Shown piece after piece: positions 9,292-61,204 of a DNA stretch of 64,000 nucleotides. Under the pieces are notes generated by a model, which saw only the letters and a list, made by a program, of their open reading frames with translations, had not been told where the DNA came from and did not search any database. The translations under genes and the position numbers were made by a program. The stretch comes from Candidatus Cloacimonadota bacterium (lineage in GTDB: Bacteria > Cloacimonadota > Cloacimonadia > G963667145): positions 1,079,503-1,143,502 of the forward strand of contig OY762940.1 in assembly GCA_963667255.1 (NCBI GenBank), written 5' to 3'. Position 1 is the stretch's first letter. Each line of letters begins with the position of its first letter.

Positions 9292-9336
9292 GTTCAGAAT
9301 AATTGACATTTTCATTGCCTATCAATTTGTTTCGTC

Positions 9337-12880: not shown

Positions 12881-12881
12881 G

Positions 12882-14699: not shown

Positions 14700-14708
14700 T
14701 TGATTTGA

Positions 14709-14750
14709 GACGGAGCTCTGTATTAATTGCAGAGTTCCGTTTTCTTTATT
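14709..14750 (+). terminator. Hairpin plus T-tract downstream of aor (possible terminator/attenuator before nuoE-like gene)
   Basis: gacggagctctg...cagagttccgt imperfect inverted repeat followed by tttctttatt. Confidence 0.4.
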
Positions 14751-14773
14751 AAAAAAAGCTAAAGGATTTTTAA

Positions 14774-17962: not shown

Positions 17963-17975
17963 GAAAATTTATTTG

Positions 17976-18626: not shown

Positions 18627-18762
18627 AATTTTATTCCTTTTATTCTTTGTTTAAATTCAGATTATCTCATTCAATTTCGTGAAAATACAAATTGTTTTTT
18701 CTATTATAAAAATGTAAATTTATTTCTTGACTTTAATTAGATTTTACTTGTAATTAGTTCGT

Positions 18763-19938: not shown

Positions 19939-19962
19939 AATAACAAAAAAATTAAGGAGGAC

Positions 19963-20910: not shown

Positions 20911-20925
20911 AAACAGGAAAATCAA

Positions 20926-23537: not shown

Positions 23538-25781
23538 ATGAGTATAGAACAAAGTATAATTTCTAGGCGAGAAAGTGATAAGAAAGTTGAAACCCAACAA
23601 TGGTTTCAAAAACTTATACAAACAAGCGAATATGTTGGTGATTTGTATTCTATCAACTATGAAACCGCAAGAGTAATAATTCATGATTTCTATAGAGAGA
23701 AAGTCGGAGGAATTCCAAGCTTAAGTTTTTTAATTGCCTCAAGAGTTGACCCCAATAATTCAGAAATTGATTTTAAAACAGAGGATGCATCATTTATTCT
23801 TTTAAGAGTAATGGATGCTATAGCGCTTCCGCAGGATAGAGAGGCAGAAAGAATTAGAGTTGAAACAGCACAAAGAATAAGTGGTGAAACTGAAAAAAAT
23901 TGGGATGAAGCAGGTTCAATGGATTTAAGAACAAAAAATCTGTTAAGTTTTGCTGGTGTTCAGTGCAGAATAATTGGAACATTTTATCTCGAAGAAAATG
24001 GAGAAAATGGAGAAGCACCACTTAATTTAAAATTTGGTAGTGATATTTCAAATTATTATCCAAACAGAGGATTAAAAGTTTATAAACCAAACGGGAAGGC
24101 TCTTGAGTTAATAGTAAATTATTCTGATCCTTCAAATATTCAAGCACACATTGAAAAATATGGAAACACAGAAAATGTAAAATTGGGTTTTGTAAGATAT
24201 GCTTCAACAAATAGAAAATATCAACAAATTAGTGATGTCCCTGTTTATATTTATCCAGCAGACCTTCTATCTCAAAAATCTGCCTTGTTTGGAATGACAA
24301 GGACAGGAAAATCCAATACGACTAAAATAATTGCAAAATCTGTTTTTGAATTACGAAATGCACAACGGTCTGGAGAAAATCCATTAAGAATTGGACAAAT
24401 AATTTTTGATCCCAACGGTGAATATGCCAATGAAAATGTTCAAGATAGGGACGGTAGCGGTAATCCAAATGCATTAAAAAATATTTGGCGAAAAGACGAA
24501 ACTTTAAGAAATATTGCTGATAAGCTGAAACAACAATATATTCAAGAAACAGAAATCGAAGAAAAGAAAAGATTATGGAATGAAATAAAATCATTGGTTG
24601 AAACAGAGGTGGTTACATATGGTATTTTACCACATCCACTAGACCCATTTCGTAGATTAATGAAAATAAACTTTTATGAAGAAGACAATCTTCAAATAGG
24701 TAAAGAAATCATTGATTTTAAAATTGCGGAGCAGTCAGCTCAGTATATTAAAAATTTTCGACAAGTTGTTTTCAAAAGACCAGTAGAAGATGAATACGAG
24801 AATGAGGTTGAATTTAATGGACAATTAAGGCGTTTTGAGAGAAGAGTTCTTGTTTATTGTGCATTGCTAAATAAAGCAGGTTTTAATCCACCGTTTCGAA
24901 CAGTTAATATTTCAAGAATGTTTAATGCTGACCTAAGAAATGCTATGATTAACTATTCTGAAAAAAAATTTACACGTAAACAAGGATTAATAAATGCAGC
25001 GGGTCAAACTCTGTCACAAACAAATGTAACCTGGGATAGTCTTGCACCTGCTTTTGAAGGTTTGTTCCATTTCCTTTCAACTGCTGATTACAATACATTC
25101 AACCAAGATTACATAAATAATCATCGTGATGATGAGAATGAGGATGCTACAGGAGAAGGTTGGGCTGAAGCAGAACTTGAAAGTTTGTTGGAAATGTTTA
25201 ATTATTCAAAAGCTATTAATCTAATTGGTGGTGTAAATACACAACATACAACATCAATAAGAACAGATTACGCCGAAGATATTTATAATGATTTAACTGA
25301 AGGGAAACTTGTTATTATTGACCAATCAAGTGGTGAGCCAGAACTAAACAAGTCTTCAGCAAATAGAATAATGTGGCATATTTTTAAAGCTAACCAAAGT
25401 GCATTTCGAGAGGGTGAGAAATTAATTCCCGAAATATTGGTTTATGTGGAGGAAGCTCATAATATATTACCAGCTGGTAATGATTTAGATTTAACCGATG
25501 TTTGGGTTAGGACAGCAAAGGAAGGTTCAAAATATAGAATTGGGATGGTTTACGCAACCCAAGAAGTAAGTAGTATTCAAAGAAATATTTTAAAAAATAC
25601 AGCGAATTGGTTTATAAGCCATTTAAACAATACTGATGAAACCAAAGAACTATGCAAGTACTATGATTTTGAAGACTTTGAGCCATCAATAAGGCGAGCA
25701 CAGGATAAGGGTTTTTTAAGAGTTAAAACTTTAAGCAATCTGTTTGTAATTCCAGTTCAGGTTGACAAATTTGAAGTCTAA
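23538..25781 (+). CDS. HerA/DUF87-like (FtsK-HerA superfamily) ATPase with about 250-aa N-terminal domain of unknown type
   Basis: Walker A GMTRTGKS (about aa 252), Walker B of hhhh-EEAH type ILVYVEEAH (about aa 637), downstream ATQ motif RIGMVYATQEV typical of HerA-family ATPases. Confidence 0.6.
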   Translation: MSIEQSIISRRESDKKVETQQWFQKLIQTSEYVGDLYSINYETARVIIHDFYREKVGGIPSLSFLIASRVDPNNSEIDFKTEDASFILLRVMDAIALPQDREAERIRVETAQRISGETEKNWDEAGSMDLRTKNLLSFAGVQCRIIGTFYLEENGENGEAPLNLKFGSDISNYYPNRGLKVYKPNGKALELIVNYSDPSNIQAHIEKYGNTENVKLGFVRYASTNRKYQQISDVPVYIYPADLLSQKSALFGMTRTGKSNTTKIIAKSVFELRNAQRSGENPLRIGQIIFDPNGEYANENVQDRDGSGNPNALKNIWRKDETLRNIADKLKQQYIQETEIEEKKRLWNEIKSLVETEVVTYGILPHPLDPFRRLMKINFYEEDNLQIGKEIIDFKIAEQSAQYIKNFRQVVFKRPVEDEYENEVEFNGQLRRFERRVLVYCALLNKAGFNPPFRTVNISRMFNADLRNAMINYSEKKFTRKQGLINAAGQTLSQTNVTWDSLAPAFEGLFHFLSTADYNTFNQDYINNHRDDENEDATGEGWAEAELESLLEMFNYSKAINLIGGVNTQHTTSIRTDYAEDIYNDLTEGKLVIIDQSSGEPELNKSSANRIMWHIFKANQSAFREGEKLIPEILVYVEEAHNILPAGNDLDLTDVWVRTAKEGSKYRIGMVYATQEVSSIQRNILKNTANWFISHLNNTDETKELCKYYDFEDFEPSIRRAQDKGFLRVKTLSNLFVIPVQVDKFEV

Positions 25782-25792
25782 ATTGAGTTAAT

Positions 25793-27160
25793 ATGGGGTT
25801 TGAAGGAGAATTTGCCAGTTATGAGCCATTAAGGCGAATGCTTGATAGTGATAAAGTTAAATCACTACAAGACAGACTGAAAATACGAAAACAAGAAGAA
25901 GAAACAGATACTTTCACTGGCTCAATTGTTAAAAAGTCAGACTTGACTGAAAGCTCAATACAACCTGATTTAGTTTTAGCAATTGATGGAAGCAATTTGG
26001 CGGCTAAAGCTGAAAGTGGATTTCCGGGTGCTGAATTTGGATATATTACAATAGCTTCTGTTTTAATAGATTTAAAACTTATTGATGATTTAGAAAAGAA
26101 ACAGTTTATTGACCCCAAAAAGGTTAGAGAAACAGAAAAAGCATCGACAATAGAAAGTGTCTTCCCCGGTTGCAATGTAATTTTGGACACAGAAAAAAAT
26201 GCAAATGCTTCACTTCGAAGAGCATTATTTGAAGAATTAAAATGTAACACAATATTTGCTAACGGTGGAGAAACATTATTGGATACTTATGAATACCTCT
26301 TCAGAATAAAGAGAGAGCATTTCTCTGAAAGCCGTCTTCCAAGAAGCCCTATTGATGGTATTGATAAAGAAATGACTTATGGATACGATGAATATCCTTG
26401 TCCTCATTCAGGAGAGCCATTATATTCAACTGATGCTTTGCGTTTACATGAATTAATGAATCCTGGTGGTAGTAATGGTGAAATGTTTGGGCAAATAATG
26501 TCAACTCTTGAAAAGGTATGGTTGGTTCATATACTCAGAGCATTTGAACAAAAAGAATGGTTATCAACCCTTCGGAGAGTAGCATTTATTATGGATGGAC
26601 CATTAGCTGTATTTAGTACTTCATCTTGGTTGACAAAAGTTATTAATTATGAATTAAATAGGCTAAATGAATTGCAGAAAGCAGTTAACGGTCAGGATTT
26701 ATTAATTATCGGTATTGAAAAATCAGGAACATTCGTAAATCATTTCGAAGAAATTGATACGACTAAAGATGGAGTTACAGATAAATTTCCAAAACAATCA
26801 GCATTACTGCTTGACGATGGCTATATAAAAAGAAATATTATTTTTTCTGAAAGCATAAAACCATATGGTCAAGACACTTATTTTGGAAGAAAAATATTTT
26901 ATAAAACTGCTTCTGGACAAAAAATAGTTCCAGTAATTGCATGTTATAATGACCAACAAAGAAATACCTCAACAGCAAATCCAAATCAATTTTCAAGGCT
27001 TTCAGATGTTATGAATTTGCTTGATAAATTGGTTTCAAGTAGATATCCAAATTCCGTTTCTCCTTTAGTATCTGCTCATGCAGAAGCAGCAATTCCTTTA
27101 AATTTAGGTAAACGGATATTTGAGGATATTGCAAGAGAAATAAGAGAAAAATCAAATTGA
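25793..27160 (+). CDS. NurA-like nuclease
   Basis: N-terminal LVLAIDGS motif, central IIGIEKSG motif, C-terminal His (SAHAEAA) consistent with NurA D-E-D-H layout; 11-nt gap to upstream gene. Confidence 0.5.
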   Translation: MGFEGEFASYEPLRRMLDSDKVKSLQDRLKIRKQEEETDTFTGSIVKKSDLTESSIQPDLVLAIDGSNLAAKAESGFPGAEFGYITIASVLIDLKLIDDLEKKQFIDPKKVRETEKASTIESVFPGCNVILDTEKNANASLRRALFEELKCNTIFANGGETLLDTYEYLFRIKREHFSESRLPRSPIDGIDKEMTYGYDEYPCPHSGEPLYSTDALRLHELMNPGGSNGEMFGQIMSTLEKVWLVHILRAFEQKEWLSTLRRVAFIMDGPLAVFSTSSWLTKVINYELNRLNELQKAVNGQDLLIIGIEKSGTFVNHFEEIDTTKDGVTDKFPKQSALLLDDGYIKRNIIFSESIKPYGQDTYFGRKIFYKTASGQKIVPVIACYNDQQRNTSTANPNQFSRLSDVMNLLDKLVSSRYPNSVSPLVSAHAEAAIPLNLGKRIFEDIAREIREKSN

Positions 27161-28287
27161 TGATTACAAAGGAAAAGATATTAAAAGGTTATAAAACCGC
27201 GGAGGCTCGATGGGCAAGATTTGGTCCATATTATGCCATGTTTCCTTTGGATTTTGCATTTGAGGTTGTTGAGAAATACTCAAAAAAAGGTGATTACATA
27301 CTTGACCCTTTTGCAGGTAGATGTAGCAGTATCTATGCTGGTGGTGTGCTTGGTCGAGTTAGCTTAGGTATTGAAATTAATCCCGTAGGCTGGCTCTTTG
27401 GGAAAGTAAAATTAGAACCTGCAGATAAGGAAGATGTAATTGACCGTTTACTTGAAATTTATGGTAAGCGAAATTATTATAGATGCTCAACTAAAAAATT
27501 ACCAGAATTTTATAGGATATGTTATAGCGATGAAGTCCTAAAATTCCTATTAGCAGCGAGAGCAAATCTTGACTGGATAAATAATGACATTGATGCAACT
27601 CTTATGTCAATTCTTTTGGTTTACTTACATGGTAAATTAGGAGAATGTTTGTCAAATCAAATGAGAATGACAAAGTCAATGGGAATGAACTATTCTGTTG
27701 AATGGTGGAAAAAAAATGGACTAACAAAACCACCTGAAATTAATCCCTTTGAATTCATTCTTAAAAAGATTGAATGGAGATATGAAAAAGGGACACCAAA
27801 TGTTACTGAAAGTGCAGTTGTATTTGGTGATAGTTCTAATCAATTAATCAACATTTCAGAGAGAGCCATTCAAAATGATATTAAATTTTCGCTTCTGTTT
27901 ACATCTCCACCATATTATTCAATCACAGATTACCATGCAGACCAGTGGCTGAGATTATGGCTGTTAGGAGGTTCAGAAAATCCGCAATCATTAAAAGACA
28001 AACATAAAGGAAGATTTGTAAACAAAGTTGATTACTACAATTTACTTGATACTGTATTTGAACTTAGTTCACGAATGATGGACGAAAGGAGTACAATTTA
28101 TGTCAGGACAGACAAGCGTGAATTTACTTTTAATTCTACTTTAGAGATTTTAAACAAGCATTTTCCAAATTATAAAACAAAGATTATTGAAAAGCCTTTA
28201 ACTAAAGACACCAAGACTCAGACAAAATTATTTGGTGACAAATCAATGAAGCCTGGAGAAGTTGATATAATATTACAAATAGAATAA
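27157..28287 (+). CDS. DNA methyltransferase (N6-adenine or N4-cytosine type)
   Basis: AdoMet motif I ILDPFAGRCSS followed by GRVSLGIEINP; catalytic motif IV FTSPPYY about 200 aa downstream; start overlaps upstream stop (ATGA). Confidence 0.6.
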   Translation: MMITKEKILKGYKTAEARWARFGPYYAMFPLDFAFEVVEKYSKKGDYILDPFAGRCSSIYAGGVLGRVSLGIEINPVGWLFGKVKLEPADKEDVIDRLLEIYGKRNYYRCSTKKLPEFYRICYSDEVLKFLLAARANLDWINNDIDATLMSILLVYLHGKLGECLSNQMRMTKSMGMNYSVEWWKKNGLTKPPEINPFEFILKKIEWRYEKGTPNVTESAVVFGDSSNQLINISERAIQNDIKFSLLFTSPPYYSITDYHADQWLRLWLLGGSENPQSLKDKHKGRFVNKVDYYNLLDTVFELSSRMMDERSTIYVRTDKREFTFNSTLEILNKHFPNYKTKIIEKPLTKDTKTQTKLFGDKSMKPGEVDIILQIE

Positions 28288-29134: not shown

Positions 29135-30340
29135 ATGGAAGGTAAAGTTTTAGTTGCACAGGGAGGAGGTCCTACCGCTGTGATTAATCAGTCGCTGGTA
29201 GGAGTGGTTTTGGAGTCTCGCAAATTCCCTCAAGTTACCAGAGTGTATGGCTCTCTTAATGGTTTGGAAGGCATAGTAAACGAGAATTTTTTGGATTTGA
29301 CTCAAGAAACTACTCACAATTTGGAACAAGTTGCCTTGACGCCTTCTTCCGCATTATTGTCCACCAGAATCAAACCTGATGCAGCTTATTGTAAGAAGAT
29401 TTTTGCAGTGCTAAAAAAATATAATATTCGCTATTTCTTCTATATCGGAGGCAACGATTCGTCTGATACCGTGAGAATAGTGAAAGAAGAGGCTGTGAAA
29501 GATGGTTACGATTTCAGGGCAATTCATATTCCCAAGACTATCGACAACGATTTGGTCGGCAATGATCATTCTCCAGGTTACGGCTCTGCTGCCCGCTTTG
29601 TTGCTCAGGCTTTTATGGGAGTCAATTTGGACAACAAGGCTTTGCCAGGAGTTTACATAGGCGTAATAATGGGTCGTCATGCGGGCTGGCTCACCGCTGC
29701 CTCCAGTTTGGCTCAAAAGTATCCCGATGATGGTCCGCACTTGATATATTTGCCGGAGAGAGCCTTTGATAAGCAAAAGTTTATTGGGGATATAAAGGCT
29801 GTTTATGCGAAATTCGGTCGCTGTGTGGTGGCTGTTTCCGAGGGCATCGTTGATAAGGATGGCATAGAGATTATTACCAAGTTGATGACAAATCAGGAGT
29901 GTGATGCACACGGCAATGTGCAGTTGTCGGGAACAGGAGCTTTGGGCGATTTGTTGGCTGAGTATGTTAGGAAAAATACGGATATTTCCCGAGTGAGAGC
30001 GGACACTTTCGGCTATCTGCAAAGGTCTTTTTATGGATGTGTTTCCGATGTTGACCAGAGTGAAGCCAGAGAAATTGCCGAGAGAGCTGTGCAATTTGCC
30101 ATTTGGCACAAAGAGGATGGCTCTATGAGTATTCAGAGAACAGGGTTTTATTCTGTGGATTACAAGCTAATTCCTATCGAGGAAGTTGCTGGCAAGACAA
30201 GAAAAGTCCCAGATTATTATATAAACGAAAAAGGGAATAATGTTACCGAAGAGCTGAAATACTATTTGCGACCTCTTGTCGGTTCAGGGTTTCAACTACC
30301 TAATCGTTTGAGAGCTCCGAGAGTGGAAAAAATTTTATGA
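29135..30340 (+). CDS. Phosphofructokinase family protein, probably PPi-dependent (Pfp-like)
   Basis: PFK fold motifs [25 protein letters not shown]; GGNDS in place of GGDGS (Asp at the position that discriminates PPi from ATP enzymes). Confidence 0.65.
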   Translation: MEGKVLVAQGGGPTAVINQSLVGVVLESRKFPQVTRVYGSLNGLEGIVNENFLDLTQETTHNLEQVALTPSSALLSTRIKPDAAYCKKIFAVLKKYNIRYFFYIGGNDSSDTVRIVKEEAVKDGYDFRAIHIPKTIDNDLVGNDHSPGYGSAARFVAQAFMGVNLDNKALPGVYIGVIMGRHAGWLTAASSLAQKYPDDGPHLIYLPERAFDKQKFIGDIKAVYAKFGRCVVAVSEGIVDKDGIEIITKLMTNQECDAHGNVQLSGTGALGDLLAEYVRKNTDISRVRADTFGYLQRSFYGCVSDVDQSEAREIAERAVQFAIWHKEDGSMSIQRTGFYSVDYKLIPIEEVAGKTRKVPDYYINEKGNNVTEELKYYLRPLVGSGFQLPNRLRAPRVEKIL

Positions 30341-31449
30341 GGCAAACCATGAAAAAAAAATGTTTGGTTGTAACAGGTGGCGGTGACTGCCCGGGTTTGA
30401 ATGCGGTTATCAGAGCGATAGTAAAGCGTGCCGATAGTGAGCCAGACTGGGAAATCTGGGGTAGCATGGATGCGTATAATGGTGTTTTGCAACAGCCTTG
30501 GCGGCTTATCAGATTGGACAAGAAAAAGGTTTCCGGTATTCATGTGCAGGGTGGCACTATTTTGGGAACTACCAACAAAGGTGGTCCTTTCGGATTTCCT
30601 GTGAAAAATTCCGACGGAGAGATTGTTTTGGAAGATAGGTCAGATTTGATGATTAGAGAGCTGAAAGAGGCTGGATTTGAGGCAGTTATCAGTATTGGCG
30701 GTGACGGCTCACAAACTATAAGCCAAAAGCTTTTTGAAAAAGGCTTGAATATGGTTGGTGTGCCGAAGACTATCGACAACGATTTGTCTTGCACCGACTA
30801 CACTTTTGGGTTCTCCACCGCTGTAGATGTGGCGACAGATGCGATAGACAAATTGGTAACGACCGCTGCGTCTCATCATCGTGTTTTGATTTTGGAAGTT
30901 ATGGGCAGATATGCTGGTTGGATTGCTTTGCACAGTTCGTTGGCAGCCGGAGCGGAAATCTGTTTAATTCCCGAGATACCTTACGATTTGGAGATTGTGA
31001 AGAATAAAATCAAAGAGCGGACAGAGAGGAAAGGGTTCTTGATTTTGGTAGTTGCCGAGGGTGCGAAGCCCAAAGATGGCGACATTTTCAGCAAAAAAAG
31101 CGAAGAGGTTGGGCATGAACAAAATGTTTTGGGTGGAATAGGTTTGCAATTGGAAAAATTGTTTAGCTCTGACCCCACAATAACAGCGGATGTTCGCACC
31201 TCTGTGCTTGGGCACTTGCAACGCGGAGGCAGACCGAGTGCTTTTGACCGCAATCTTGCCACACAATTTGGCGTGAAAGCGTTTGAGATGGTGCTGAATA
31301 AAGAGTTTGGCAAAATGGTGGTGGTCAATCACAAGAAAATGGAGTCCGTGAGCCTGAAAGAAGCAATCTCAACTTACAATTTGGTGGATAAAAACTCCGA
31401 TATGATTAAGACCGCTAGAGGTGTGGGGATTTGCTTCGGAGACGAATAA
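30337..31449 (+). CDS. pfkA: ATP-dependent 6-phosphofructokinase
   Basis: [35 protein letters not shown] motifs. Confidence 0.8.
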
Positions 31450-53383: not shown

Positions 53384-55387
53384 CTAATTATCAAACCAAA
53401 TCTTTTCTTGCTCGAATGCTTGAGCAAAAAGCATTTCATCGCCGAAAATAACGGTTGCTCCCTGCAGTTCTGATAGTTGTAGCATTGTTGTTTTTCTCGG
53501 CTGATAGACCATATCCATCACAACTTGTTCAGGTCTGAATTTTGCTACTAAACTTTTGTTTTCGTTCATTCCCACGCTGGTTGCGTTGATAACCACATCA
53601 AAATTAACACAATTTTTTTCGGCTTCTTCGAGGGTGCAAGAGGTAAAATCGCCGATATTGGATAGCTCATCATTTTTTTGCAATGACCTTGCGGCTATAG
53701 TGACCTTGGCGTTTTCTTTTAATAGCCCGAATAGAGCAGCTTTGGCAGCACCACCATTCCCGAGAAGCAAAACTTTCTTACCAGCAAGAGAACAATTATA
53801 GGAGAGAGGTTTAATCGCTCCGATATAGTCGGTATTAAATCCGAGCAATTTCCCTTTTTCGTTTTTGAGGGTGTTGACGGCACCGATTTTTTGAGCGGTT
53901 TCATCCAATTTATTTAGTAAGGGCAAAACCTCTTGTTTAAAAGGCATTGTTATAGCCACACCTTTCCATCCATACGATTTGAAATTAGCCAAAAATTCTT
54001 CGAGTTCAGGTCCGCTGTCGATAGGGAAATTTACAAAACAGGCGTTGATTTGCTTGCTCAAGAATTGCTGATTGTGGTAGGCTCGAGAAAAGCTCTTCTC
54101 AATATTTTTGCCGATAAGCCCGTAAACACAGGTATTTTCGTTGGTGTTCAAGACTCCATACATATCGGTGAGAGTGCTCAAATCTATCTGTCCCGGAGCG
54201 ACAGCTTTCCCAGTTGGTAAAAAAGAGTAGGTGAAAGGCGAGCCGTACTTTAGGGAAAGAATTCGCGAAAATTCCCCTTTGACTCCCATGCCGAAAGCAA
54301 TAAGGTTGGGAAATTTCTTCAAGGCATTAAAGAGCAAAAAGTTGTCATTTATGTTGTTTATCAAAGTTGCAACTTTTAGGTAAGGAGTTCCCAAAATCTC
54401 CATTTTAGAGATGATTTCCACTATATTTTTAGGCGTCTCTGCAAAATTGTGATAAGATAAAACGATTTTTGAGTTCAATTCGCTGAAATCCAAATCTTTG
54501 CCCAAATCGTATTCAATATCGATAAATTCAAACCCAAGTTTGTCAATTTGCAAAATAGCTTTCTTGTATTCTTCTTCCGTAAGATTGGCTTTTCCGCCTT
54601 GTTTAACGGTTCTCAGGGTTGCTATAACGCCTCTTTTGTTCCAAGTGTCTAAATTATTGGGAATTTCGTTCAGATAGTCCAAGCGAAACTCCGCCAAATA
54701 ATGCAAACTCCTGATGTAATCTATCTCTTTTTTGGCATTTTGGACATCAGATTTGCTAACACAAACACAAATTTTTGGCAGGTAAACAGAGGAAAGAGGC
54801 TTTTTTCTTTTCGGTGTAATCTTTTTGCATAAAGCCAACAACTCATGAGCTTTTTCGCGTAGTTCCTGCAAAGAGCCGTAGTTTTCCACTATGTGGTTGC
54901 AATTTGTGATAAGAGCGTTGTTCTTTTGCGAGTTTATTCTAGAGAGAAGAGAGCTGTTTTTGATTTGCAGTCTCTGAATTTGCAAGTCCACAGAGGTTTC
55001 GACATTCACATCCAAGTCAAAACAATCGCTGATGTTGCGAGAAAAAACAGGCGGGATTTCCACGAAAATCAAATCTTCTTCTTGTTTCTTTATAATGTCT
55101 TCGATTGTTGCCAAAATCACGGGATGAGTAATCTCGTTTAGCTTATTTAGTTTTTCGCTATCCGAAAATGCTAACTTGCTCAAAGAATTTTTGTCTATTT
55201 CGTTATCACAATTCAATATCGATTCGAAAAACTCTTTGACCAAATCGTCTTTGACCAGGGGTAAAATTTGGTGTCCGACTTCATCGGCATAAACTATTTT
55301 GCAGTCCAGTTCTTCCAAGAATTTGCAGAGCGACGACTTCCCGCAACCTATTGTTCCAGTGATGGCGACTAAGGTTTTTTGTTTCAT
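53384..55387 (-). CDS. Tri-domain fusion: dephospho-CoA kinase (CoaE) / 3-dehydroquinate dehydratase type I (AroD) / shikimate dehydrogenase (AroE)
   Basis: N-term ITGTIGCGKSS ... ITHPVI (CoaE-like); middle FGMGVKGEFSRILSLKYGSPFTY (type I DHQase motif); C-term ITMPFKQ, NTDYIG, GNGGAAKAA (AroE motifs). Confidence 0.65.
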   Translation of the reverse strand: MKQKTLVAITGTIGCGKSSLCKFLEELDCKIVYADEVGHQILPLVKDDLVKEFFESILNCDNEIDKNSLSKLAFSDSEKLNKLNEITHPVILATIEDIIKKQEEDLIFVEIPPVFSRNISDCFDLDVNVETSVDLQIQRLQIKNSSLLSRINSQKNNALITNCNHIVENYGSLQELREKAHELLALCKKITPKRKKPLSSVYLPKICVCVSKSDVQNAKKEIDYIRSLHYLAEFRLDYLNEIPNNLDTWNKRGVIATLRTVKQGGKANLTEEEYKKAILQIDKLGFEFIDIEYDLGKDLDFSELNSKIVLSYHNFAETPKNIVEIISKMEILGTPYLKVATLINNINDNFLLFNALKKFPNLIAFGMGVKGEFSRILSLKYGSPFTYSFLPTGKAVAPGQIDLSTLTDMYGVLNTNENTCVYGLIGKNIEKSFSRAYHNQQFLSKQINACFVNFPIDSGPELEEFLANFKSYGWKGVAITMPFKQEVLPLLNKLDETAQKIGAVNTLKNEKGKLLGFNTDYIGAIKPLSYNCSLAGKKVLLLGNGGAAKAALFGLLKENAKVTIAARSLQKNDELSNIGDFTSCTLEEAEKNCVNFDVVINATSVGMNENKSLVAKFRPEQVVMDMVYQPRKTTMLQLSELQGATVIFGDEMLFAQAFEQEKIWFDN

Positions 55388-55740
55388 AAGTATTTTTTGA
55401 TTTCTCCGATTATTTGTGCAAATTCAAAATAGTTTTTTTGTTTTTCTAATCTTTCGACAAGTTGTGCAATCTTTCTTCTGTTTCCTATCAAAATGGCGTT
55501 GCTCCTCTCAATCTTGCCACATACACACATCTTGTGAGCGGCGACATCCATGCCGATTGCCAGAGCCTCTTGTTTCATTATATTAACGCTACCGCACAGG
55601 AGATTGTCAAGCCGGATATTCAGAGGCAACATTTTGTCCGCCATCACTTCGATGCCCGCCGAACTGCATCCGATTTCGTTCAAAAAATTCTTTGCTTCGC
55701 TGGTATTTTGCGGAGTTAGTTTACTTGATTTGATAGACAA
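55384..55740 (-). CDS. Hypothetical protein (118 aa) downstream of tonB
   Basis: ORF with overlaps at both ends consistent with operon membership; no recognised motif. Confidence 0.3.
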   Translation of the reverse strand: MSIKSSKLTPQNTSEAKNFLNEIGCSSAGIEVMADKMLPLNIRLDNLLCGSVNIMKQEALAIGMDVAAHKMCVCGKIERSNAILIGNRRKIAQLVERLEKQKNYFEFAQIIGEIKKYL

Positions 55741-56419
55741 AAGTGATAAATCCCGTTTGATTTTGTTCGCCCAAAATTGGGTTGAATTTCCATTGAGCGA
55801 AAGCCTCTCTGCTTGCTTTTTCCAGCAGAGGATTGGCTCTTTTTATAATGACGATATTGGAGACAGTTCCTTGCGGAGAGAGGGAAAAACGAAGTTTGAC
55901 TTTGGCATTTTTTTGTAGTCCGTCAGGATATTTAGGCAAAACTTTGCTCACAATTTTTCGGCTGACGACTTCACCTTCCAATTGAAAATCTTGCTCATTT
56001 TCGCTTTTCTTTAGCTCTTCCGAAAATTGCTCAAAAAAATCTTGGTTGTCCGGCAAATTGTTGTTTTGGCTGAGAGTGGGAGACTTCGGCTCGGGATTTA
56101 GATTATTGATGGAGTTGCCGATTTTTTCTTGCGTAATCACTTTATTTTTAACAACAATTTTTTCGGGCGAGGAGGTAATCTTTTTGTCCAAAGATTTGGT
56201 TATACTTTTGGGTAAATTGATTTTTTTGGGAACATAGCGATTATCCAAACCTTTTTTAACGCTCTTCTGTCCACTTGCATCAGAGGAAAAAATCCCCACA
56301 ATTTGAATTGTGGGAGGAATTTTATTCAGAACGGTATCGTAACTCAAAACCAAAAATATTGCCACAAAAAACAAGTGTGTCGCAACGGAAATCAAAAAAC
56401 TCAATCGCTTGTCGTTCAT
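55721..56419 (-). CDS. tonB: TonB-family energy transducer
   Basis: N-terminal TM helix, Pro/Lys-rich linker, C-terminal TonB domain (PKYPDGLQKNAKV...FNPI). Confidence 0.65.
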   Translation of the reverse strand: MNDKRLSFLISVATHLFFVAIFLVLSYDTVLNKIPPTIQIVGIFSSDASGQKSVKKGLDNRYVPKKINLPKSITKSLDKKITSSPEKIVVKNKVITQEKIGNSINNLNPEPKSPTLSQNNNLPDNQDFFEQFSEELKKSENEQDFQLEGEVVSRKIVSKVLPKYPDGLQKNAKVKLRFSLSPQGTVSNIVIIKRANPLLEKASREAFAQWKFNPILGEQNQTGFITFVYQIK

Positions 56420-56428
56420 AACAAAAGT

Positions 56429-56833
56429 TTATTTTAAATCAACTCCGCGAGTGGCAAGGCAGAACTTGGTTGCTCCGGACAATTTGGCGACATCCATAAC
56501 TTTGACTATTTTTTGAAACTCCAAACTCTTATCCGCTTGCACCACGATAATTTTCCCTGGTTGTGAGTTGTCCAATTTCTCTTTGAGTAACCCCGGCAAA
56601 TCGTCCAAATCTATCTGATTTTGGTCTAAATAAACTTGACCTTCGTGATTGATGCTGATGAAGATATTGTTTGTGTAGTCGCTTTGACTACTTGAAGCGT
56701 CCGGCAAATTGACCTTGATGCCCGAATAAGTGATGAAACTCGACGAGACAAGGATAAAAATCAGCAGAAGCATAATAATGTCGGTAAACGAAATCAAAGC
56801 TATGGAACTAATTCTTTTTTTCTTCAAAATCAT
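56429..56833 (-). CDS. exbD: ExbD/TolR biopolymer transport protein
   Basis: Single N-terminal TM helix, about 134 aa, ExbD-like periplasmic domain. Confidence 0.8.
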   Translation of the reverse strand: MILKKKRISSIALISFTDIIMLLLIFILVSSSFITYSGIKVNLPDASSSQSDYTNNIFISINHEGQVYLDQNQIDLDDLPGLLKEKLDNSQPGKIIVVQADKSLEFQKIVKVMDVAKLSGATKFCLATRGVDLK

Positions 56834-56835
56834 GG

Positions 56836-57438
56836 TTAATTAAATTTCCCGATTATCATATTTGCTTTTTGTTGTAAATCAACAGCTTCGTAGTCGAGTT
56901 TGTCCAAGAGCAAATTGTAAAAACTCAAGGCAACGATACCGACGACCAAACCGGCAACCGTGGTAATTAGTGCTTCCCAAATACCTCCTGCCAAAAGAGA
57001 GATGTCAACGCCTCCAGCAGTTTGTTGGATTTTCATAAACACTTTTATCATTCCCAAAACAGTGCCCATAAAACCGAACAAAGGTCCTACGGCTGCAATT
57101 GTGGAGAGACTTCCTAACCCTTTTTCCATAGTGAGGATTTCGCGTTGCACACAGGAAGAGATTGTTTGTTCCACATTTTCGTTTCCCATATTTGACAAAA
57201 CTCCAGCATAGACTCTGGAGATGGGAATTGAATCGACAGCTTCGCACAATTGGTTAGCTCTGTTGAGGTCTTTCTCTTGTATCACTTTGCCAAACTCCAA
57301 TAAGAAATCTTCTTTCTCTTTTCTGTTCTTTTTAAGGCTTAAGAATTTTTCGATAATAATAGCCAAAGCGATGATGGAAAGCATTGCCAAAATTATCATA
57401 ATGTAGCCGCCTTTGACGGCGATAGACAGATAGCTCAT
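56836..57438 (-). CDS. exbB: MotA/TolQ/ExbB proton-channel protein
   Basis: Three TM helices with conserved C-terminal region. Confidence 0.8.
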   Translation of the reverse strand: MSYLSIAVKGGYIMIILAMLSIIALAIIIEKFLSLKKNRKEKEDFLLEFGKVIQEKDLNRANQLCEAVDSIPISRVYAGVLSNMGNENVEQTISSCVQREILTMEKGLGSLSTIAAVGPLFGFMGTVLGMIKVFMKIQQTAGGVDISLLAGGIWEALITTVAGLVVGIVALSFYNLLLDKLDYEAVDLQQKANMIIGKFN

Positions 57439-57452
57439 TTGTTCCTCTCGTT

Positions 57453-58913
57453 TTATTTATCAAATATTTTCGTCATTTCTCTATCGGGAGTTTTGCCTGA
57501 CAAAGAAACAACAATAATTACAATGGAGGCGATAATAAATCCGGGCAATAATTCGTATAAATCAAAAAGACCACCGCTTAAATTTTTCCAAATGATGATG
57601 GTCGCTCCTCCGCTTATCATTCCCCCAATGGCAGCATAGCGAGTCATTCTTTTCCAAAAGAGGCTAAATAAAAGCACCGGTCCGAAGGCTGCTCCAAAGC
57701 CTGCCCAAGCATAAGAAACTAAGCCGAGAACCGAAGAGTTTTGATTGGAAGCAATAATTCCCGCTAACACGGCAACGGCTACAACAGTAATTCTGCTGAC
57801 ATAAACCAACTCTTTTTCGCTGACATCTCTTTTGGTAAAAAACTTGTAAAAATCTTCGGTAAAAGAAGAGGCTACTACGATGAGTTGAGAATCGGCGGTG
57901 CTCATCACGGCAGCAAGAATGGCAGCGAGCATTATTCCGGCAACAAGCGGATGGAAGAAAACTTCGATTAAGAGCATAAAAACTTTTTCGGAGTCGAAGC
58001 CCGCAGGAACGGCTGTAGAGTGAGTGTAAGCATAGCCGATAAGCCCTATCAAAGTGGCGGCTGCAAGACTGACAACAGTCCACGAAACTGCAATAACTCT
58101 GGCTGGACGGACATCTTCTTCTGATTTCAGCCCCATAAATCTGGTGAGAATATGCGGTTGCCCGAAATAGCCAAGCCCCCAAGCCATGGAAGATAAGATT
58201 GTCAGTAGCGAAAGATTTTCTGAGGCTCCAAACTCTCTGAAAATCGATAAATGGTCGCTTATCAAAGAAAAATTGCTGGAAAATATTTTGTATCCAAAAA
58301 TACAGACGAAGCAGATGGAAAACAGCATCAAGAGTCCTTGGAAAAAATCTGTCCAAGACACAGCCAAAAATCCGCCCAAAAAGGTATAGCTGATGATAAC
58401 CACTACGGAAATGAGCAGGGAGTAAATGTAGGGAATGCTGAAAACGGTGTTGAAAAGTTTGGCTCCGGCGACAAATCCCGAGGAGGTATAAATTACAAAA
58501 AAGATAATGATGAAAGCACCAGATAGGAAACGAAGAGTTTTGGATTTATCTTGAAATCTGACTTCCAAATATTCGGAAATTGTCAGAGAATCGTCGGCTG
58601 ATTCGGTAAATCTACGAAGTCTTTTAGCAACGAATTTCCAGTTGCACCAAGTGCCGATAGCAAGACCTAAAGCCATCCAAAAAGCTCCGGCAAGTCCGAA
58701 AGCATAAGCTGCTCCGGGCAGTCCCATCAAAAGCCAACCGCTCATATCCGAAGCACAAGCCGACAGAGCTCCAACCCAAGGACCAAGCGACCTACCGCCC
58801 AAAACATAATCGGACAAACTTTCTGTTTTGCGATAAAAGTGCAAACCGATGAACAGCATAAACACGAAATACAAAGTAAAGGTCAAATAAATACTTCCGT
58901 TATTGACAAACAT
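57453..58913 (-). CDS. Sodium:solute symporter family transporter (PutP-like)
   Basis: SSF-family 13-TM layout; start set at internal Met (MFVNNGS). Confidence 0.75.
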   Translation of the reverse strand: MFVNNGSIYLTFTLYFVFMLFIGLHFYRKTESLSDYVLGGRSLGPWVGALSACASDMSGWLLMGLPGAAYAFGLAGAFWMALGLAIGTWCNWKFVAKRLRRFTESADDSLTISEYLEVRFQDKSKTLRFLSGAFIIIFFVIYTSSGFVAGAKLFNTVFSIPYIYSLLISVVVIISYTFLGGFLAVSWTDFFQGLLMLFSICFVCIFGYKIFSSNFSLISDHLSIFREFGASENLSLLTILSSMAWGLGYFGQPHILTRFMGLKSEEDVRPARVIAVSWTVVSLAAATLIGLIGYAYTHSTAVPAGFDSEKVFMLLIEVFFHPLVAGIMLAAILAAVMSTADSQLIVVASSFTEDFYKFFTKRDVSEKELVYVSRITVVAVAVLAGIIASNQNSSVLGLVSYAWAGFGAAFGPVLLFSLFWKRMTRYAAIGGMISGGATIIIWKNLSGGLFDLYELLPGFIIASIVIIVVSLSGKTPDREMTKIFDK

Positions 58914-59641
58914 TAATTCACTCCTTATAAAAAACAAATTAGGATTCTCACAATGTGTAATAATCACGATAAGTCAGTATTTTGTAACTTATTTTATTGT
59001 CAAATCTAAAAAATTAATCTTTGTTCATTCTTTGAAAGGGGAAACGAGCCAAAAAAACTTCTTTTGTTATAAGGTTGTTAAGATAGCTACTTTTCCCATC
59101 CATCCTCATTCCAGCGAAAGCGGTAATCCAGTCGGGACAAGGTAGGGACATTAGCACTAGCTTCTTTATAAAAAACGAGTTAAGAACGGGCATGAGGATT
59201 AGAGGAGCAGGGAACTTAAACAACAATTCCGTCAGACCCCAATCAACTAAGGCTGGACAACGATTTGGCAAGGGGCTATGTGGATTATTTGGGGGATAAT
59301 AACCTTGATAGAACAGGGAAGAAGAAGGGCAATGATACGAGTATGGCAACGCCAAAGAGAGTGGCACAACCTACTGCTCAAACTCCTGTGCAAAACTTGG
59401 CTCCACAGCCAAAGCCCGAAGAAGAAGAGGAAACAGCAAGAGACGACACAAACGGATTTTGAGAAAAGTCTTGACTTTCTCCTCGAAAAGAATGTTTTGG
59501 GTTTGTTTTAAAGGCAAAACTCTTGACAATTATCCTCACAATCGCCCATTGGATTGTAGTGGGCATAGGAGGAAACGATGGCAAAGGAAAAGTCCTCTTG
59601 GTTGACCACGGTAAAACCACAAAATTGAGGGGAAACACGAA

Positions 59642-60292
59642 ATGAAAGCTATCTTGATATCGCTTGTTGAGAGCATCTTTGCTAATCCTGCAAACTATGG
59701 AATATTTCTTCTTTGTTGTATAGTTTTAACCGCTATTGTAACTATTAAGATTAAAGGGTTTTTGAATAAATGCAAAAATTCTAACAAAAAGTTTGGTAAT
59801 ATAGATAAAAGCTTTGTTAATGTTAATGAAAAGATGGATTCTTTTGGTGGGAAGCTTGATGCTATAGGTGCAAGTTTGATGAATTTATGCACTGCATTAC
59901 ACGAAAAAAAAGTGGTTGTAAAGAATTATACTCCCCAAGCTTTAATTCAGTCAAGTAGCCCCATTAATTTAACAGAAAACGGTATTAAATTTGTAGAAAA
60001 AAGCGGGGCTAAAACTGCTTATTTGTCTATGAAGCAAGAGTTAACCGATAAAGTCCTTAGCAATGCTCCTTACAAAAATTATTTAGACTTTGAACAAGCG
60101 TGTTTAAGGGCAATTGATAACACTCAAAGAGAAGAATTGAACGAGCCTAAAAACTACATATATGAAAATCCTGTTACTAATGGTATTGCTGTTACTATCT
60201 ATGACATTGTTAAAATGATAGGAATTATGCTCAGAAATGACATCTTAAAAGAACATAAAGATATTGTTACCAGTTCGTTAAAAAAGAAATAA
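59642..60292 (+). CDS. Hypothetical membrane-anchored protein
   Basis: N-terminal hydrophobic helix (GIFLLCCIVLTAIVTI); no recognised catalytic motif; directly upstream of Panacea-domain gene. Confidence 0.35.
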   Translation: MKAILISLVESIFANPANYGIFLLCCIVLTAIVTIKIKGFLNKCKNSNKKFGNIDKSFVNVNEKMDSFGGKLDAIGASLMNLCTALHEKKVVVKNYTPQALIQSSSPINLTENGIKFVEKSGAKTAYLSMKQELTDKVLSNAPYKNYLDFEQACLRAIDNTQREELNEPKNYIYENPVTNGIAVTIYDIVKMIGIMLRNDILKEHKDIVTSSLKKK

Positions 60293-60306
60293 TTTTGGAG
60301 TAAGTT

Positions 60307-60780
60307 ATGGGAAAGAAAATTGATGCTGTAGCTATTGCTAAATGGTTTTTGTGCAATATTGATTTGGCAAGTGGAGATTTAATAACTCATTTAAAGTTGC
60401 AAAAATTAGTTTACTATGCTCAAGCGTGGTATTTGGCTCTCAACGACAAAGAGTTGTTTCCCGAAGAAATAGAAGCGTGGGCTCACGGTCCGGTTGTTCC
60501 TTGTATTTTCCAAGCATTTAAAGGGAATGGATTTGACCCTATTCCTTGCCCAAGTGATTGCCCTGTTTTCGATAAGGAAATAACCTCACATCTTAGCGAA
60601 ATACTGGATGTCTATGGTATTTATGAAGCAAAATATTTGGAAAGATTAACTCATCAAGAAGCTCCTTGGCTGCTTGCAAGAGGGAATTTACCTATTGAGG
60701 TTTCTTCTCACAATATTATTTCCAAAGAGAGTATGAAAGATTTTTACAAAAAAATGAACGAAGAAAACAAGAGTGCATAG
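60307..60780 (+). CDS. Panacea-domain (DUF4065, SocA/GepA-like) protein, putative antitoxin
   Basis: LKLQKLVYYAQAWYLA ... WAHGPVVP motifs characteristic of DUF4065. Confidence 0.55.
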   Translation: MGKKIDAVAIAKWFLCNIDLASGDLITHLKLQKLVYYAQAWYLALNDKELFPEEIEAWAHGPVVPCIFQAFKGNGFDPIPCPSDCPVFDKEITSHLSEILDVYGIYEAKYLERLTHQEAPWLLARGNLPIEVSSHNIISKESMKDFYKKMNEENKSA

Positions 60781-61204
60781 GATAAATGCAAAGGTAAATA
60801 ACGAGAACAAAAAAGCCTTTTATGATACATCTATAAAACCAAAAGAAGATTTCCCCAATGTTAGCTTAAAATATTTTAATGATGGGTTTGAGTGTTTTAG
60901 TGAATGGGGAAAGAAAGAGTTAAAGGGGCTTACATCTTTTATAAAAAAACTAAGAAATTCGACTTGGCAAAAGATATTTAACTCTGGTGGCAAGTGTAGT
61001 AAAAACAGTAAGAATGGTTTTGCCTTAACTACTCACAAAGGCAGCAATATTATCAAGAGGCTTTCTGGGAAATTGGCTTATATAGAAAAAAAAGAAATTA
61101 TTTTTTTTGAACTTAGAACGAGTGGGAAAGCGAGAGTTCACGGATTTAAACAAGGGGAAACATTCTTTTTAATTCTTCTCGATAGAAATCACAAACTCTA
61201 TTAA
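60773..61204 (+). CDS. Hypothetical protein, candidate toxin/effector partner of the Panacea-domain protein
   Basis: 8-nt overlap with upstream gene suggests translational coupling; basic protein, no recognised motif. Confidence 0.3.
   Translation: MHRINAKVNNENKKAFYDTSIKPKEDFPNVSLKYFNDGFECFSEWGKKELKGLTSFIKKLRNSTWQKIFNSGGKCSKNSKNGFALTTHKGSNIIKRLSGKLAYIEKKEIIFFELRTSGKARVHGFKQGETFFLILLDRNHKLY

What the first reader, a model, noticed from the sequence alone, without database searches (positions are those of the whole stretch)
53384..55387. Unusual tri-domain fusion of dephospho-CoA kinase with dehydroquinate dehydratase and shikimate dehydrogenase
AroD-AroE fusions are known, but the N-terminal P-loop domain here looks like CoaE (GTIGCGKSS, HPVI) rather than shikimate kinase. 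That would link the last step of CoA biosynthesis to two shikimate-pathway steps in one polypeptide, at the end of the exbB-exbD-tonB operon.
Basis: seen in the sequence. Interest (0 to 1): 0.4.

Follow-up and report, generated by a model that had tools for sequence, protein, structure and literature searches.

The report
CoaE–AroD–AroE three-enzyme fusion protein

Summary
Window 53384-55387 (- strand) is one uninterrupted 667-aa ORF. Residues 1-185 form a dephospho-CoA kinase (CoaE) domain. It scores above the curated Pfam and NCBIfam cut-offs, matches only DPCKs among solved structures, and its top 28 fold matches are all DPCKs. Residues 205-412 are a type I dehydroquinase and residues 413-667 an AroE-type shikimate dehydrogenase, both with catalytic residues intact. 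It is not an assembly artefact: the same architecture occurs in six full-length orthologues, five of them on independently assembled ~1.5-1.6 Mb chromosomes. The junction stays in frame through synonymous changes, and dN/dS is 0.06-0.10 in every domain. An exhaustive search of 1.84 billion cluster representatives found the fusion only in this clade. The closest relatives of the AroD-AroE body include shikimate kinase-AroD-AroE fusions (DPANN archaea where named), and the whole chain aligns to the SK/DHQase/SDH modules of fungal AROM. A CoaE-family kinase therefore occupies the shikimate-kinase slot. The best reading is a genuine trifunctional enzyme whose DPCK module has no metabolic link to its partners. 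A minority reading (~0.1) is that the domain acts on shikimate. I could not check the whole genome for aroK or a second coaE.

The parts
53384..55387 (-). Complete coaE-aroD-aroE fusion gene (667 aa plus stop)
   Evidence: Single ORF. Three-domain profile matches. Full-length orthologues at 42-78% identity. AF2 model with mean pLDDT 92.4 and pTM 0.88.
54833..55387 (-). Dephospho-CoA kinase (CoaE) domain, residues 1-185. P-loop G11-S18; catalytic Asp D35; H88-P89; E110-x-P112-P113; lid R139; Q154; N169
   Evidence: PF01121 88 bits and TIGR00152 105 bits, both above cut-off. All kinase matches among solved structures are DPCKs. Foldseek ranks 1-28 are DPCKs. Every position that is 100% conserved in 120 stand-alone CoaEs is retained, apart from one Leu that is Ile in a single member. 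dN/dS 0.056.
54776..54832 (-). Lys-rich linker, residues 186-204 (…CKKITPKRKKPLSSVYLP…). It has no internal ATG/GTG/TTG start for AroD
   Evidence: Read directly from the sequence. Present in all orthologues, with K195 invariant. In frame with synonymous differences against L001.
54152..54775 (-). Type I 3-dehydroquinate dehydratase domain, residues 205-412. Catalytic His313 in SYHNF; Schiff-base Lys338 in LKVAT; also E233, R235, R259, R375, Q400
   Evidence: PF01487 134 bits. Alignment to solved type I DHQases through both motifs. These residues are >=90% conserved across 30 relatives.
53387..54151 (-). AroE-type shikimate dehydrogenase domain, residues 413-667. S432/S434; catalytic K484 (TMPFK) and D520 (NTD); Gly-rich GNGGAAKA; R567
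   Evidence: TIGR00507 212.1 bits against a cut-off of 200.2. PF08501 and PF01488. Conserved columns. Foldseek matches to AroE structures at TM 0.8-0.88.
55384..55740 (-). Small upstream ORF (up to 118 aa; probably ~86 aa from an internal Met). Its TGA stop overlaps the fusion gene's ATG (ATGA)
   Evidence: Conserved with the same 4-bp overlap in L001 and L003, absent in L004. No Pfam, NCBIfam or PDB match.
55721..58967 (-). Upstream co-directional genes: putP (57453-58967), exbB (56836-57438), exbD (56429-56833), tonB (55721-56419)
   Evidence: Pfam SSF, MotA_ExbB, ExbD and TonB_C. TIGR02121 PutP 629 bits against a cut-off of 515.5, and not PanF. Same gene order in L003 and L004.

Best explanation
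The gene encodes a genuine trifunctional enzyme. An N-terminal dephospho-CoA kinase module (ATP + dephospho-CoA -> CoA) is joined by a short Lys-rich linker to a type I dehydroquinase. That enzyme would make 3-dehydroshikimate through the Lys338 Schiff base with His313. The third module is an NADP-type shikimate dehydrogenase (Lys484/Asp520), which would reduce 3-dehydroshikimate to shikimate. The AroD-AroE pair works as in the known bifunctional DHQ-SDH enzymes. The DPCK module is catalytically independent and has no substrate in common with its partners. I infer that an ancestor of this Cloacimonadota clade had its housekeeping coaE next to an aroDE gene and lost the intervening stop. The fusion has since been kept as the last, translationally coupled gene of the putP-exbB-exbD-tonB cluster. 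What is shown: the domain identities, intact catalytic residues, purifying selection on all three modules, and restriction to one clade. What is inferred: the enzyme activities, the fusion route, and the lack of functional coupling between DPCK and AroDE.
For: The CoaE assignment rests on curated profiles above cut-off, on solved-structure sequence matches that are DPCKs only, and on Foldseek ranks 1-28 all being DPCKs at TM 0.6-0.88 for the domain model. Every column that is 100% conserved in 120 stand-alone CoaEs (P-loop G/G/K, catalytic Asp, lid Arg, Q154) is retained in all six fused proteins, apart from one Leu that is Ile in a single member. dN/dS for the CoaE domain is 0.056, as low as for AroD (0.098) and AroE (0.073). 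Per-domain identity at the deepest split is 40/39/48%. The AroD and AroE catalytic residues are conserved. The AroDE body superimposes on Arabidopsis DHQ-SDH at TM 0.81. The architecture is found in six full-length orthologues with conserved synteny. There is precedent for CoaE as the N-terminal module of fusions with unrelated partners, namely M. tuberculosis CoaE-UPF0157 (PMC2765170).
Against: No lineage was found in which coaE and aroDE sit side by side unfused, so the fusion route is conjecture. The CoaE domain is only 25-38% identical to any stand-alone CoaE. It also carries clade-specific changes at positions that are otherwise highly conserved: PL->PP, R->K143, and Q136 lost in four of six. 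The first Asp of the DXD motif is Y/S/C. The kinase occupies exactly the slot that shikimate kinase holds in the nearest AroDE relatives and in AROM, which is an odd coincidence if DPCK is functionally unrelated. I could not establish whether it is the only coaE in these genomes.
Confidence: 0.8

Rival explanations
1. The CoaE-family domain has been recruited as the shikimate kinase of the pathway, either instead of or in addition to its DPCK activity. The protein would then be a functional analogue of the SK-DHQase-SDH module of AROM, catalysing steps 3, 4 and 5. This would be a non-orthologous displacement of AroK by a CoaE-type P-loop kinase.
For: Nine of the 150 best-scoring relatives of the AroDE body carry a true SKI domain immediately N-terminal to DHQase-SDH. 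Seven are SKI-AroD-AroE proteins of 658-717 aa and two are AroA-SKI-AroD-AroE. Eight of the nine fall in the sister group of the CoaE clade in the NJ tree. Foldseek aligns the whole chain (~735 columns) to the SK/DHQase/SDH constructs of fungal Aro1/AROM. Both kinase families share the P-loop NMP-kinase fold and the catalytic Asp of the DXD motif (PMC2765170). No aroK was found in the window or in the orthologue flanks. The domain is divergent from all stand-alone CoaEs and has changes at some conserved positions. Shikimate kinase has a precedent for non-orthologous displacement, the archaeal GHMP kinase (discussed in PMC3018139).
Against: The acceptor-binding part of the domain is CoaE-type over the full Pfam model (positions 2-178 of 180), with the H88-P89 and Q154 motifs kept. 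There is no trace of SK-type sequence similarity. Structures of shikimate kinase rank 37th or lower at TM ~0.5. The score passes NCBIfam's equivalog threshold for DPCK. CoA is essential, and most bacteria have a single coaE (general knowledge). The sister relationship to SK-fused proteins has only 48/100 bootstrap support, and the clade is not nested inside them. Only about 120 kb of ~1.5 Mb genomes was inspected for aroK.
Confidence: 0.1
2. The three-domain ORF is an artefact: two adjacent genes (coaE and aroDE) were merged by a frameshift or indel error in a long-read assembly, at the A-rich stretch in the linker.
For: The junction contains the homopolymer-rich run CCGAAAAGAAAAAAGCC, which is the kind of sequence where long-read assemblies make indel errors.
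Against: The same uninterrupted architecture occurs in six full-length proteins from different assemblies and sources at 42-78% identity, including a JGI short-contig metagenome. The linker is alignable in all of them, with K195 and C207 invariant. The junction differs from L001 by synonymous changes while staying in frame. There is no ATG, GTG or TTG start codon from which AroD could begin separately. AlphaFold models the chain as one confident unit, pTM 0.88.
Confidence: 0.01
3. The CoaE-like domain is a catalytically retired or regulatory nucleotide-binding module. It might act as an ATP/CoA sensor or as a folding or oligomerisation aid for AroDE, while real DPCK activity is supplied elsewhere.
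For: The domain has clade-specific substitutions at positions that are 92-97% conserved in stand-alone CoaEs: L->P113, R->K143, and Q136 variable. The lid region has lower pLDDT (63-73). In M. tuberculosis the partner domain of CoaE serves folding rather than catalysis (PMC2765170).
Against: All residues needed for phosphoryl transfer are invariant across the clade (P-loop Lys/Ser, catalytic Asp35, lid Arg139). dN/dS of 0.056 is the lowest of the three domains. A retired enzyme usually loses such residues.
Confidence: 0.06

Closest known systems
Bifunctional DHQ-SDH (AroD-AroE), e.g. Arabidopsis thaliana DHQ-SDH (PDB 2o7s/2gpt), and prokaryotic AroDE fusions
   Same: Residues 205-667 have the same two domains in the same order. 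Foldseek gives TM 0.81 (normalised to the target) over 494 columns at 30% identity. The catalytic His/Lys of DHQase and Lys/Asp of SDH are conserved. AroD-AroE fusions are catalogued in Planctomycetes, Acidobacteria and some archaea (PMC11237513).
   Different: This protein carries an extra N-terminal 185-residue kinase domain. It scores far below the cut-off of the Chlamydia-type bifunctional equivalog NF006802 (198.6 against 598 bits). It lacks a detectable SDH_C (PF18317) match, which most relatives have.
SK-DHQase-SDH modules: the C-terminal three domains of fungal pentafunctional AROM/Aro1 (PDB 6hqv, 7tbv, 7u5u), and prokaryotic SKI-AroD-AroE proteins (P0039, P0041, P0042, P0047, P0064, P0119, P0168; Woesearchaeota or Nanoarchaeota where named)
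   Same: The layout is identical: a P-loop kinase, then type I DHQase, then SDH, with near-identical length (658-717 aa against 667). The whole chain aligns structurally over ~735 columns. The AroDE bodies are the closest relatives outside the clade.
   Different: The kinase is a different family, PF01121 CoaE rather than PF01202 SKI. The two do not cross-match at E<=1e-3. TM to the AROM constructs is only ~0.33 because the relative domain orientations differ.
Stand-alone bacterial dephospho-CoA kinase CoaE (e.g. Thermotoga maritima 2grj, Thermus thermophilus 1uf9, E. coli 1vhl)
   Same: The match covers the full domain, with TM 0.75-0.88. The P-loop, catalytic Asp, HP motif, lid Arg and Q154 are retained.
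   Different: This domain is fused to two unrelated enzymes and is only 25-38% identical to any stand-alone CoaE. It has PPVF instead of PLLF, K143 for Arg, and Y/S/C for the first Asp of DXD.
Other CoaE fusions: M. tuberculosis CoaE-UPF0157/GrpB, and mammalian PPAT-DPCK CoA synthase (PDB 2f6r)
   Same: In these too, CoaE is one module of a multi-domain polypeptide. In M. tuberculosis it is also the N-terminal module, with a partner that is functionally unrelated (PMC2765170; 2f6r appears among the fold matches).
   Different: The partner domains are completely different. COASY joins two consecutive steps of the same pathway, whereas this protein joins two different pathways.

Membership tests
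Dephospho-CoA kinase, CoaE (PF01121 / TIGR00152) | Profile match above the curated cut-off over the full domain | tested here: met
   PF01121 scores 88.1 bits (gathering score 27) over model positions 2-178 of 180. The TIGR00152 equivalog scores 105.1 bits against a cut-off of 65.55.
Dephospho-CoA kinase, CoaE (PF01121 / TIGR00152) | Walker A P-loop, catalytic Asp of the DXD motif (E. coli D33 / M. tuberculosis D32), and lid Arg (R140) | tested here: met
   G11, G16, K17, S18, D35 and R139 are invariant in six orthologues and align to columns that are 94-100% conserved in 120 stand-alone CoaEs. The first Asp of DXD is Y/S/C, but that column is under 80% conserved in the stand-alone set too (motif described in PMC2765170).
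Dephospho-CoA kinase, CoaE (PF01121 / TIGR00152) | CoaE fold, including the helical CoA-binding sub-domain | tested here: met
   For the domain model (pLDDT 87.3), Foldseek ranks 1-28 are all DPCKs, with E from 8e-14 to 2e-08 and TM up to 0.88.
Dephospho-CoA kinase, CoaE (PF01121 / TIGR00152) | Phosphorylates dephospho-CoA; is the organism's DPCK | not testable with these tools
   This needs an enzyme assay or complementation, plus a whole-genome inventory.
Shikimate kinase AroK/AroL (PF01202 SKI) | Profile or sequence similarity to SKI | tested here: not met
   There is no SKI or AroK hit at E<=0.01 in Pfam or NCBIfam. No shikimate kinase appears among PDB sequence matches at E<=1. E. coli AroK (sequence from memory) and the SKI domains of P0039 and P0119 give no hit.
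Shikimate kinase AroK/AroL (PF01202 SKI) | SK fold as the best structural match | tested here: not met
   The first shikimate kinase (4y0a) is at rank 37, with E 7.4e-06 and TM 0.48-0.51.
Type I 3-dehydroquinate dehydratase (PF01487 / TIGR01093) | Profile match, catalytic His, and Schiff-base Lys | tested here: met
   PF01487 scores 134.1 bits over model positions 1-230 of 230. H313 (SYHNF) and K338 (LKVAT) are invariant and align to the same motifs in solved DHQases. TIGR01093 scores 125.9 bits, slightly below its cut-off of 139.3.
Shikimate dehydrogenase AroE (TIGR00507) | Equivalog-level profile match, catalytic Lys/Asp, and Gly-rich NADP loop | tested here: met
   TIGR00507 scores 212.1 bits against a cut-off of 200.2. 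The YdiB models score far below their cut-offs (79 against 349 bits). K484, D520 and G543-x-G545-G546-A547 are invariant. TM to AroE structures is 0.8-0.88.
AROM-like SK-DHQase-SDH tri-domain fusion | Domain order: kinase, then type I DHQase, then SDH, on one chain | tested here: met
   The whole chain aligns to 7tbv, 7u5u and 6hqv.
AROM-like SK-DHQase-SDH tri-domain fusion | The kinase module is a shikimate kinase (three consecutive pathway steps) | tested here: not met
   By sequence and by fold the kinase is CoaE family, not SKI. Activity on shikimate was not tested.

The most novel reading that the evidence does not exclude
In this Cloacimonadota clade a CoaE-family P-loop kinase has taken over the shikimate-kinase position of an SK-DHQase-SDH fusion and phosphorylates shikimate, alone or alongside dephospho-CoA. 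That would be a third, independently evolved type of shikimate kinase, after AroK/AroL and the archaeal GHMP kinase. It would also be a bacterial AROM-like module built with a non-homologous part.
Probability: 0.1. Interest if true: 0.75.

Novelty: new variant of a known kind. Interest (0 to 1): 0.38.

Why it matters
Fusion proteins are widely used to infer functional links ("Rosetta stone" logic) and to name genes automatically. This one is conserved and under selection, yet it joins enzymes of two pathways with no known shared metabolite. It is therefore either a clean counter-example to that logic or a hint of unrecognised coupling. Annotation pipelines are likely to name it after only one of its activities, which would hide the organism's DPCK or its AroD/AroE in metabolic reconstructions of Cloacimonadota, common syntrophs in anaerobic digesters. 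The kinase sits where shikimate kinase sits in AROM and in DPANN-type fusions. That gives a cheap and sharp experiment: does a CoaE-fold kinase act on shikimate? A positive answer would add a new case of non-orthologous enzyme displacement in a pathway that is a herbicide and antimicrobial target.

Tried and rejected
1. Shikimate-kinase identity for the N-terminal domain: rejected by profiles, PDB sequence search, direct phmmer and fold ranking.

2. Assembly or frameshift artefact: rejected.

3. A CoA link through the operon, with the SSF transporter acting as the pantothenate symporter PanF: rejected. It is PutP, at 629 bits against a cut-off of 515.5, while PanF scores 185 bits against 328.

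4. Other shikimate, aromatic or CoA genes nearby: none in the 64-kb window or in the flanks of L001, L003 and L004. The only CoA-related gene is a CoA-consuming ACPS.

5. Search for an unfused coaE + aroDE intermediate, or for more members in JGI metagenomes: unproductive, with three weak and irrelevant loci.

6. Single-sequence word search with the CoaE domain: nearly empty, with 2 hits. The profile version gave only distant stand-alone CoaEs and did not even list the fused proteins, so it cannot show that a second coaE is absent.

7. Inferring an SK-fused ancestor from the AroDE tree: not supported. The clade is monophyletic in 98 of 100 replicates, but its sister relationship has only 48 of 100.

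8. The context of the best AroDE-only hit, P0008, turned out to be an archaeal contig with a full shikimate operon, so it is not a useful bacterial outgroup.

9. Literature: no paper combines dephospho-CoA kinase, shikimate dehydrogenase and fusion, and none describes a trifunctional SK/DHQase/SDH in prokaryotes. One paper mentions both Cloacimonadota and shikimate, but only in passing.

10. Exact look-up of P0001 in the contig index: not on record.
Full report
**Observation**

Window 53384..55387 (- strand) is one uninterrupted ATG-to-stop ORF of 667 aa.

- **Pfam:** four domains above gathering score. These are CoaE at residues 6-173 (E 7.6e-25, 88 bits), DHquinase_I at 207-410 (1.1e-38), Shikimate_dh_N at 424-507 and Shikimate_DH at 533-605. 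No shikimate-kinase (SKI) match appears.
- **NCBIfam:** the dephospho-CoA kinase equivalog TIGR00152 scores 105.1 bits (cut-off 65.55) and aroE TIGR00507 scores 212.1 bits (cut-off 200.2). aroD TIGR01093 falls just under its cut-off (125.9 against 139.3).

**Not an artefact**

- The identical protein exists on a 1,587,896-bp contig. Full-length orthologues with the same three domains occur at 77%, 58%, 56% and 42% identity, and a fifth, P0033, at 58%. Four of these five lie on separately assembled ~1.54-1.58 Mb chromosomes and one on a 52-kb JGI contig.
- The 77% orthologue lies on OY762943.1, a MAG titled Candidatus Cloacimonadota bacterium. I infer the window's organism from that.
- The six proteins align end to end. 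The linker is present in all of them, with K195 and C207 invariant.
- At the DNA level the A-rich junction differs from L001 by synonymous changes while staying in frame. CCGAAAAGAAAAAAGCCT and CCTAAGCGAAAAAAACCT both encode PKRKKP.
- The linker contains no ATG, GTG or TTG from which AroD could start on its own.
- Nei-Gojobori dN/dS between the window and L001 is 0.056 for CoaE, 0.098 for AroD and 0.073 for AroE. dS is saturated, so these values are approximate.
- Per-domain identity at the deepest split is 40%, 39% and 48%. All three modules are under comparable purifying selection.

**Is the kinase CoaE or shikimate kinase?**

Every test says CoaE.

- All 15 solved-structure sequence matches of the kinase type are dephospho-CoA kinases, and no shikimate kinase appears even at E<=1.
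E. coli CoaE finds the fusion in all four.
- The SKI domains of related fusion proteins do not cross-match the CoaE domain.
- A domain-only AlphaFold model (pLDDT 87.3) gives Foldseek ranks 1-28 that are all DPCKs, with E from 8e-14 to 2e-08 and TM up to 0.88. The first shikimate kinase is at rank 37 with TM about 0.5.
- I compared the domain with 120 stand-alone CoaEs. All columns that are 100% conserved there are kept in all six fused proteins, apart from one Leu that is Ile in a single member. These are the P-loop G/G/K, the catalytic Asp (D35, equivalent to E. coli D33), the lid Arg (R139) and Q154. Of 30 columns conserved at 80% or more, 14 are identical in all six and 20 are kept if conservative changes are allowed.
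- The departures are clade-specific: PPVF for PLLF, K143 for Arg, Q136 lost in four of six, and Y/S/C for the first Asp of the DXD motif (motif described in PMC2765170).

**AroD and AroE modules**

- The DHQase His (H313, SYHNF) and Schiff-base Lys (K338, LKVAT) align to the same motifs in solved type I dehydroquinases. They are at least 90% conserved among 30 relatives, as are E233, R235, R259, R375 and Q400.
- In the SDH module, S432/S434, K484 (TMPFK), D520 (NTD) and the GNGGAAKA loop are invariant.
- The full-length AF2 model is confident (pLDDT 92.4, pTM 0.88). Its AroDE body superimposes on Arabidopsis DHQ-SDH at TM 0.81.

**Distribution and relatives**

- I ran an exhaustive HMMER search of 1.84 billion 50%-identity cluster representatives with the full-length profile. 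Only two representatives (P0004 and P0007) matched over all three domains, both above 1000 bits. Everything else scored 470 bits or less and matched only the AroDE part. The fusion is confined to this Cloacimonadota clade.
- Several of those next-best hits carry N-terminal extensions. Pfam shows them to be SKI-AroD-AroE (seven proteins, 658-717 aa), AroA-SKI-AroD-AroE (two) and AroA-AroD-AroE (one). Where a source gives a name, they come from Woesearchaeota or Nanoarchaeota. The locus of the AroDE-only hit P0008 is archaeal and holds a full shikimate operon.
- In an NJ tree of the AroDE part, the CoaE-fused clade is monophyletic in 98 of 100 replicates. It is sister to a 22-member group that holds 8 of the 9 SKI-fused proteins, but that sister relationship has only 48 of 100 support, and the clade is not nested inside the SKI-fused proteins. 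An SK-fused ancestor cannot be inferred.
- Foldseek also aligns the entire chain, about 735 columns, to the SK/DHQase/SDH constructs of fungal Aro1/AROM (7tbv, 7u5u, 6hqv).
- In short, the layout of kinase, then DHQase, then SDH is a known one. What is new is that the kinase comes from a different family.
- The CoaE domain has no close stand-alone relative. The nearest are ordinary bacterial DPCKs from many phyla at 25-38% identity.

**Context**

- The gene is the last of six co-directional genes: putP, exbB, exbD, tonB, a small ORF, then the fusion. The gaps are 14, 2, 9, -20 and -4 bp.
- The fusion's ATG overlaps the small ORF's TGA stop, which suggests translational coupling.
- The order putP-exbB-exbD-tonB-fusion is conserved in the 58% and 42% orthologous loci.
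- The transporter is the proline symporter PutP, not the pantothenate symporter PanF, so the operon offers no CoA logic.
- nadB-nadA-nadC converge on the 3' end. That side is not conserved in L003 or L004.
- No other shikimate, aromatic amino-acid or CoA-synthesis gene lies in the 64-kb window or in the flanks of the orthologues.

**Interpretation**

- **Best supported (about 0.8):** a genuine trifunctional protein. It combines an independent DPCK module with a DHQ-SDH pair that works like the known bifunctional enzymes. The activities, and the origin by loss of a stop codon between neighbouring genes, are inferences. I found no unfused intermediate.
- **Interesting minority reading (about 0.1):** the CoaE-fold kinase acts on shikimate, filling the slot that shikimate kinase has in the nearest relatives and in AROM. 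The full-length CoaE-type acceptor domain, the retained CoaE motifs and the equivalog-level score argue against it.
- **Regulatory or retired-enzyme reading (about 0.06):** unlikely, because the catalytic residues are invariant and dN/dS is the lowest of the three domains.
- **Artefact reading:** effectively excluded.

**What I could not do**

I could not inventory the whole genome for aroK, for a second coaE and for the rest of both pathways. It failed to list even the fused proteins themselves. This inventory is the decisive missing computation.

**Literature**

No paper in the searchable library combines dephospho-CoA kinase, shikimate dehydrogenase and fusion. A 2024 survey of archaeal fusions lists AroD-AroE and AroE-AroK but no CoaE combination (PMC11237513). 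Known CoaE fusions involve other partners, namely UPF0157/GrpB in M. tuberculosis (PMC2765170) and PPAT in mammals (2f6r among the fold matches).

**Verdict**

I rate this a new variant of a known kind: a multi-enzyme shikimate fusion with a kinase module from a different family. Interest is moderate.

Noticed in passing
window 55384-55740 (-); L001 ~5700-6004; L003 9744-10004: There is a small conserved ORF between tonB and the fusion gene: 86 aa as called in L003 and up to 118 aa here. It always ends in a 4-bp ATGA overlap with the fusion's start codon. It has no Pfam, NCBIfam or PDB sequence match, and it is absent from the most divergent orthologous locus, L004.
   Followed up: partly
proteins P0039, P0041, P0042, P0047, P0064, P0119, P0168 (SKI-AroD-AroE); P0038, P0040 (AroA-SKI-AroD-AroE); P0036 (AroA-AroD-AroE); P0085 (AroD-AroE-SKI): These are prokaryotic partial AROM-like fusions of three or four shikimate enzymes, from Woesearchaeota or Nanoarchaeota where named. 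The archaeal fusion survey I read (PMC11237513) lists only AroD-AroE and AroE-AroK, so these larger fusions may be under-described.
   Followed up: partly
window 23538-28287 (+): A HerA-like helicase (DUF87, 747 aa), a NurA-domain nuclease (455 aa) and a protein with a DNA methylase domain (376 aa) lie in tandem. A bacterial HerA-NurA pair with a methylase could be a defence or repair module.
   Followed up: no
window 59642-61204 (+): A SocA/Panacea antitoxin-domain protein (60307-60780) is flanked by two ORFs with no family match (59642-60292 and 60773-61204, the latter overlapping it). This may be a toxin-antitoxin cassette.
   Followed up: no
window 29135-31449 (+): Two tandem phosphofructokinase-family genes (401 and 370 aa) overlap by 4 bp. 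One matches the PFK profile much more weakly (164 against 314 bits), which suggests a two-subunit or diverged paralogue arrangement.
   Followed up: no
window 12693-22699: This cluster holds an aldehyde:ferredoxin oxidoreductase, NuoE-like and NuoF-like proteins and an Fe-S protein. Next come MobB, MoeA and an ABC transporter with a molybdate/tungstate-type binding protein. It fits an anaerobic, tungsten- or molybdenum-dependent fermentative lifestyle.
   Followed up: no
L003 12094-16290: In the 58% orthologous genome, the fusion gene is followed by HSP20 and two transposase genes (DUF772, Transposase_mut) instead of the convergent nadCAB seen in the window. The downstream boundary of the locus is not conserved, whereas the upstream putP-exbBD-tonB side is.
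   Followed up: partly
window 8096-9244 (+) versus 8138-9325 (-): Two long ORFs overlap almost completely on opposite strands. Only the + strand ORF has a family match (Bmp/PnrA substrate-binding protein), so the 395-aa antisense ORF is probably spurious.
   Followed up: partly
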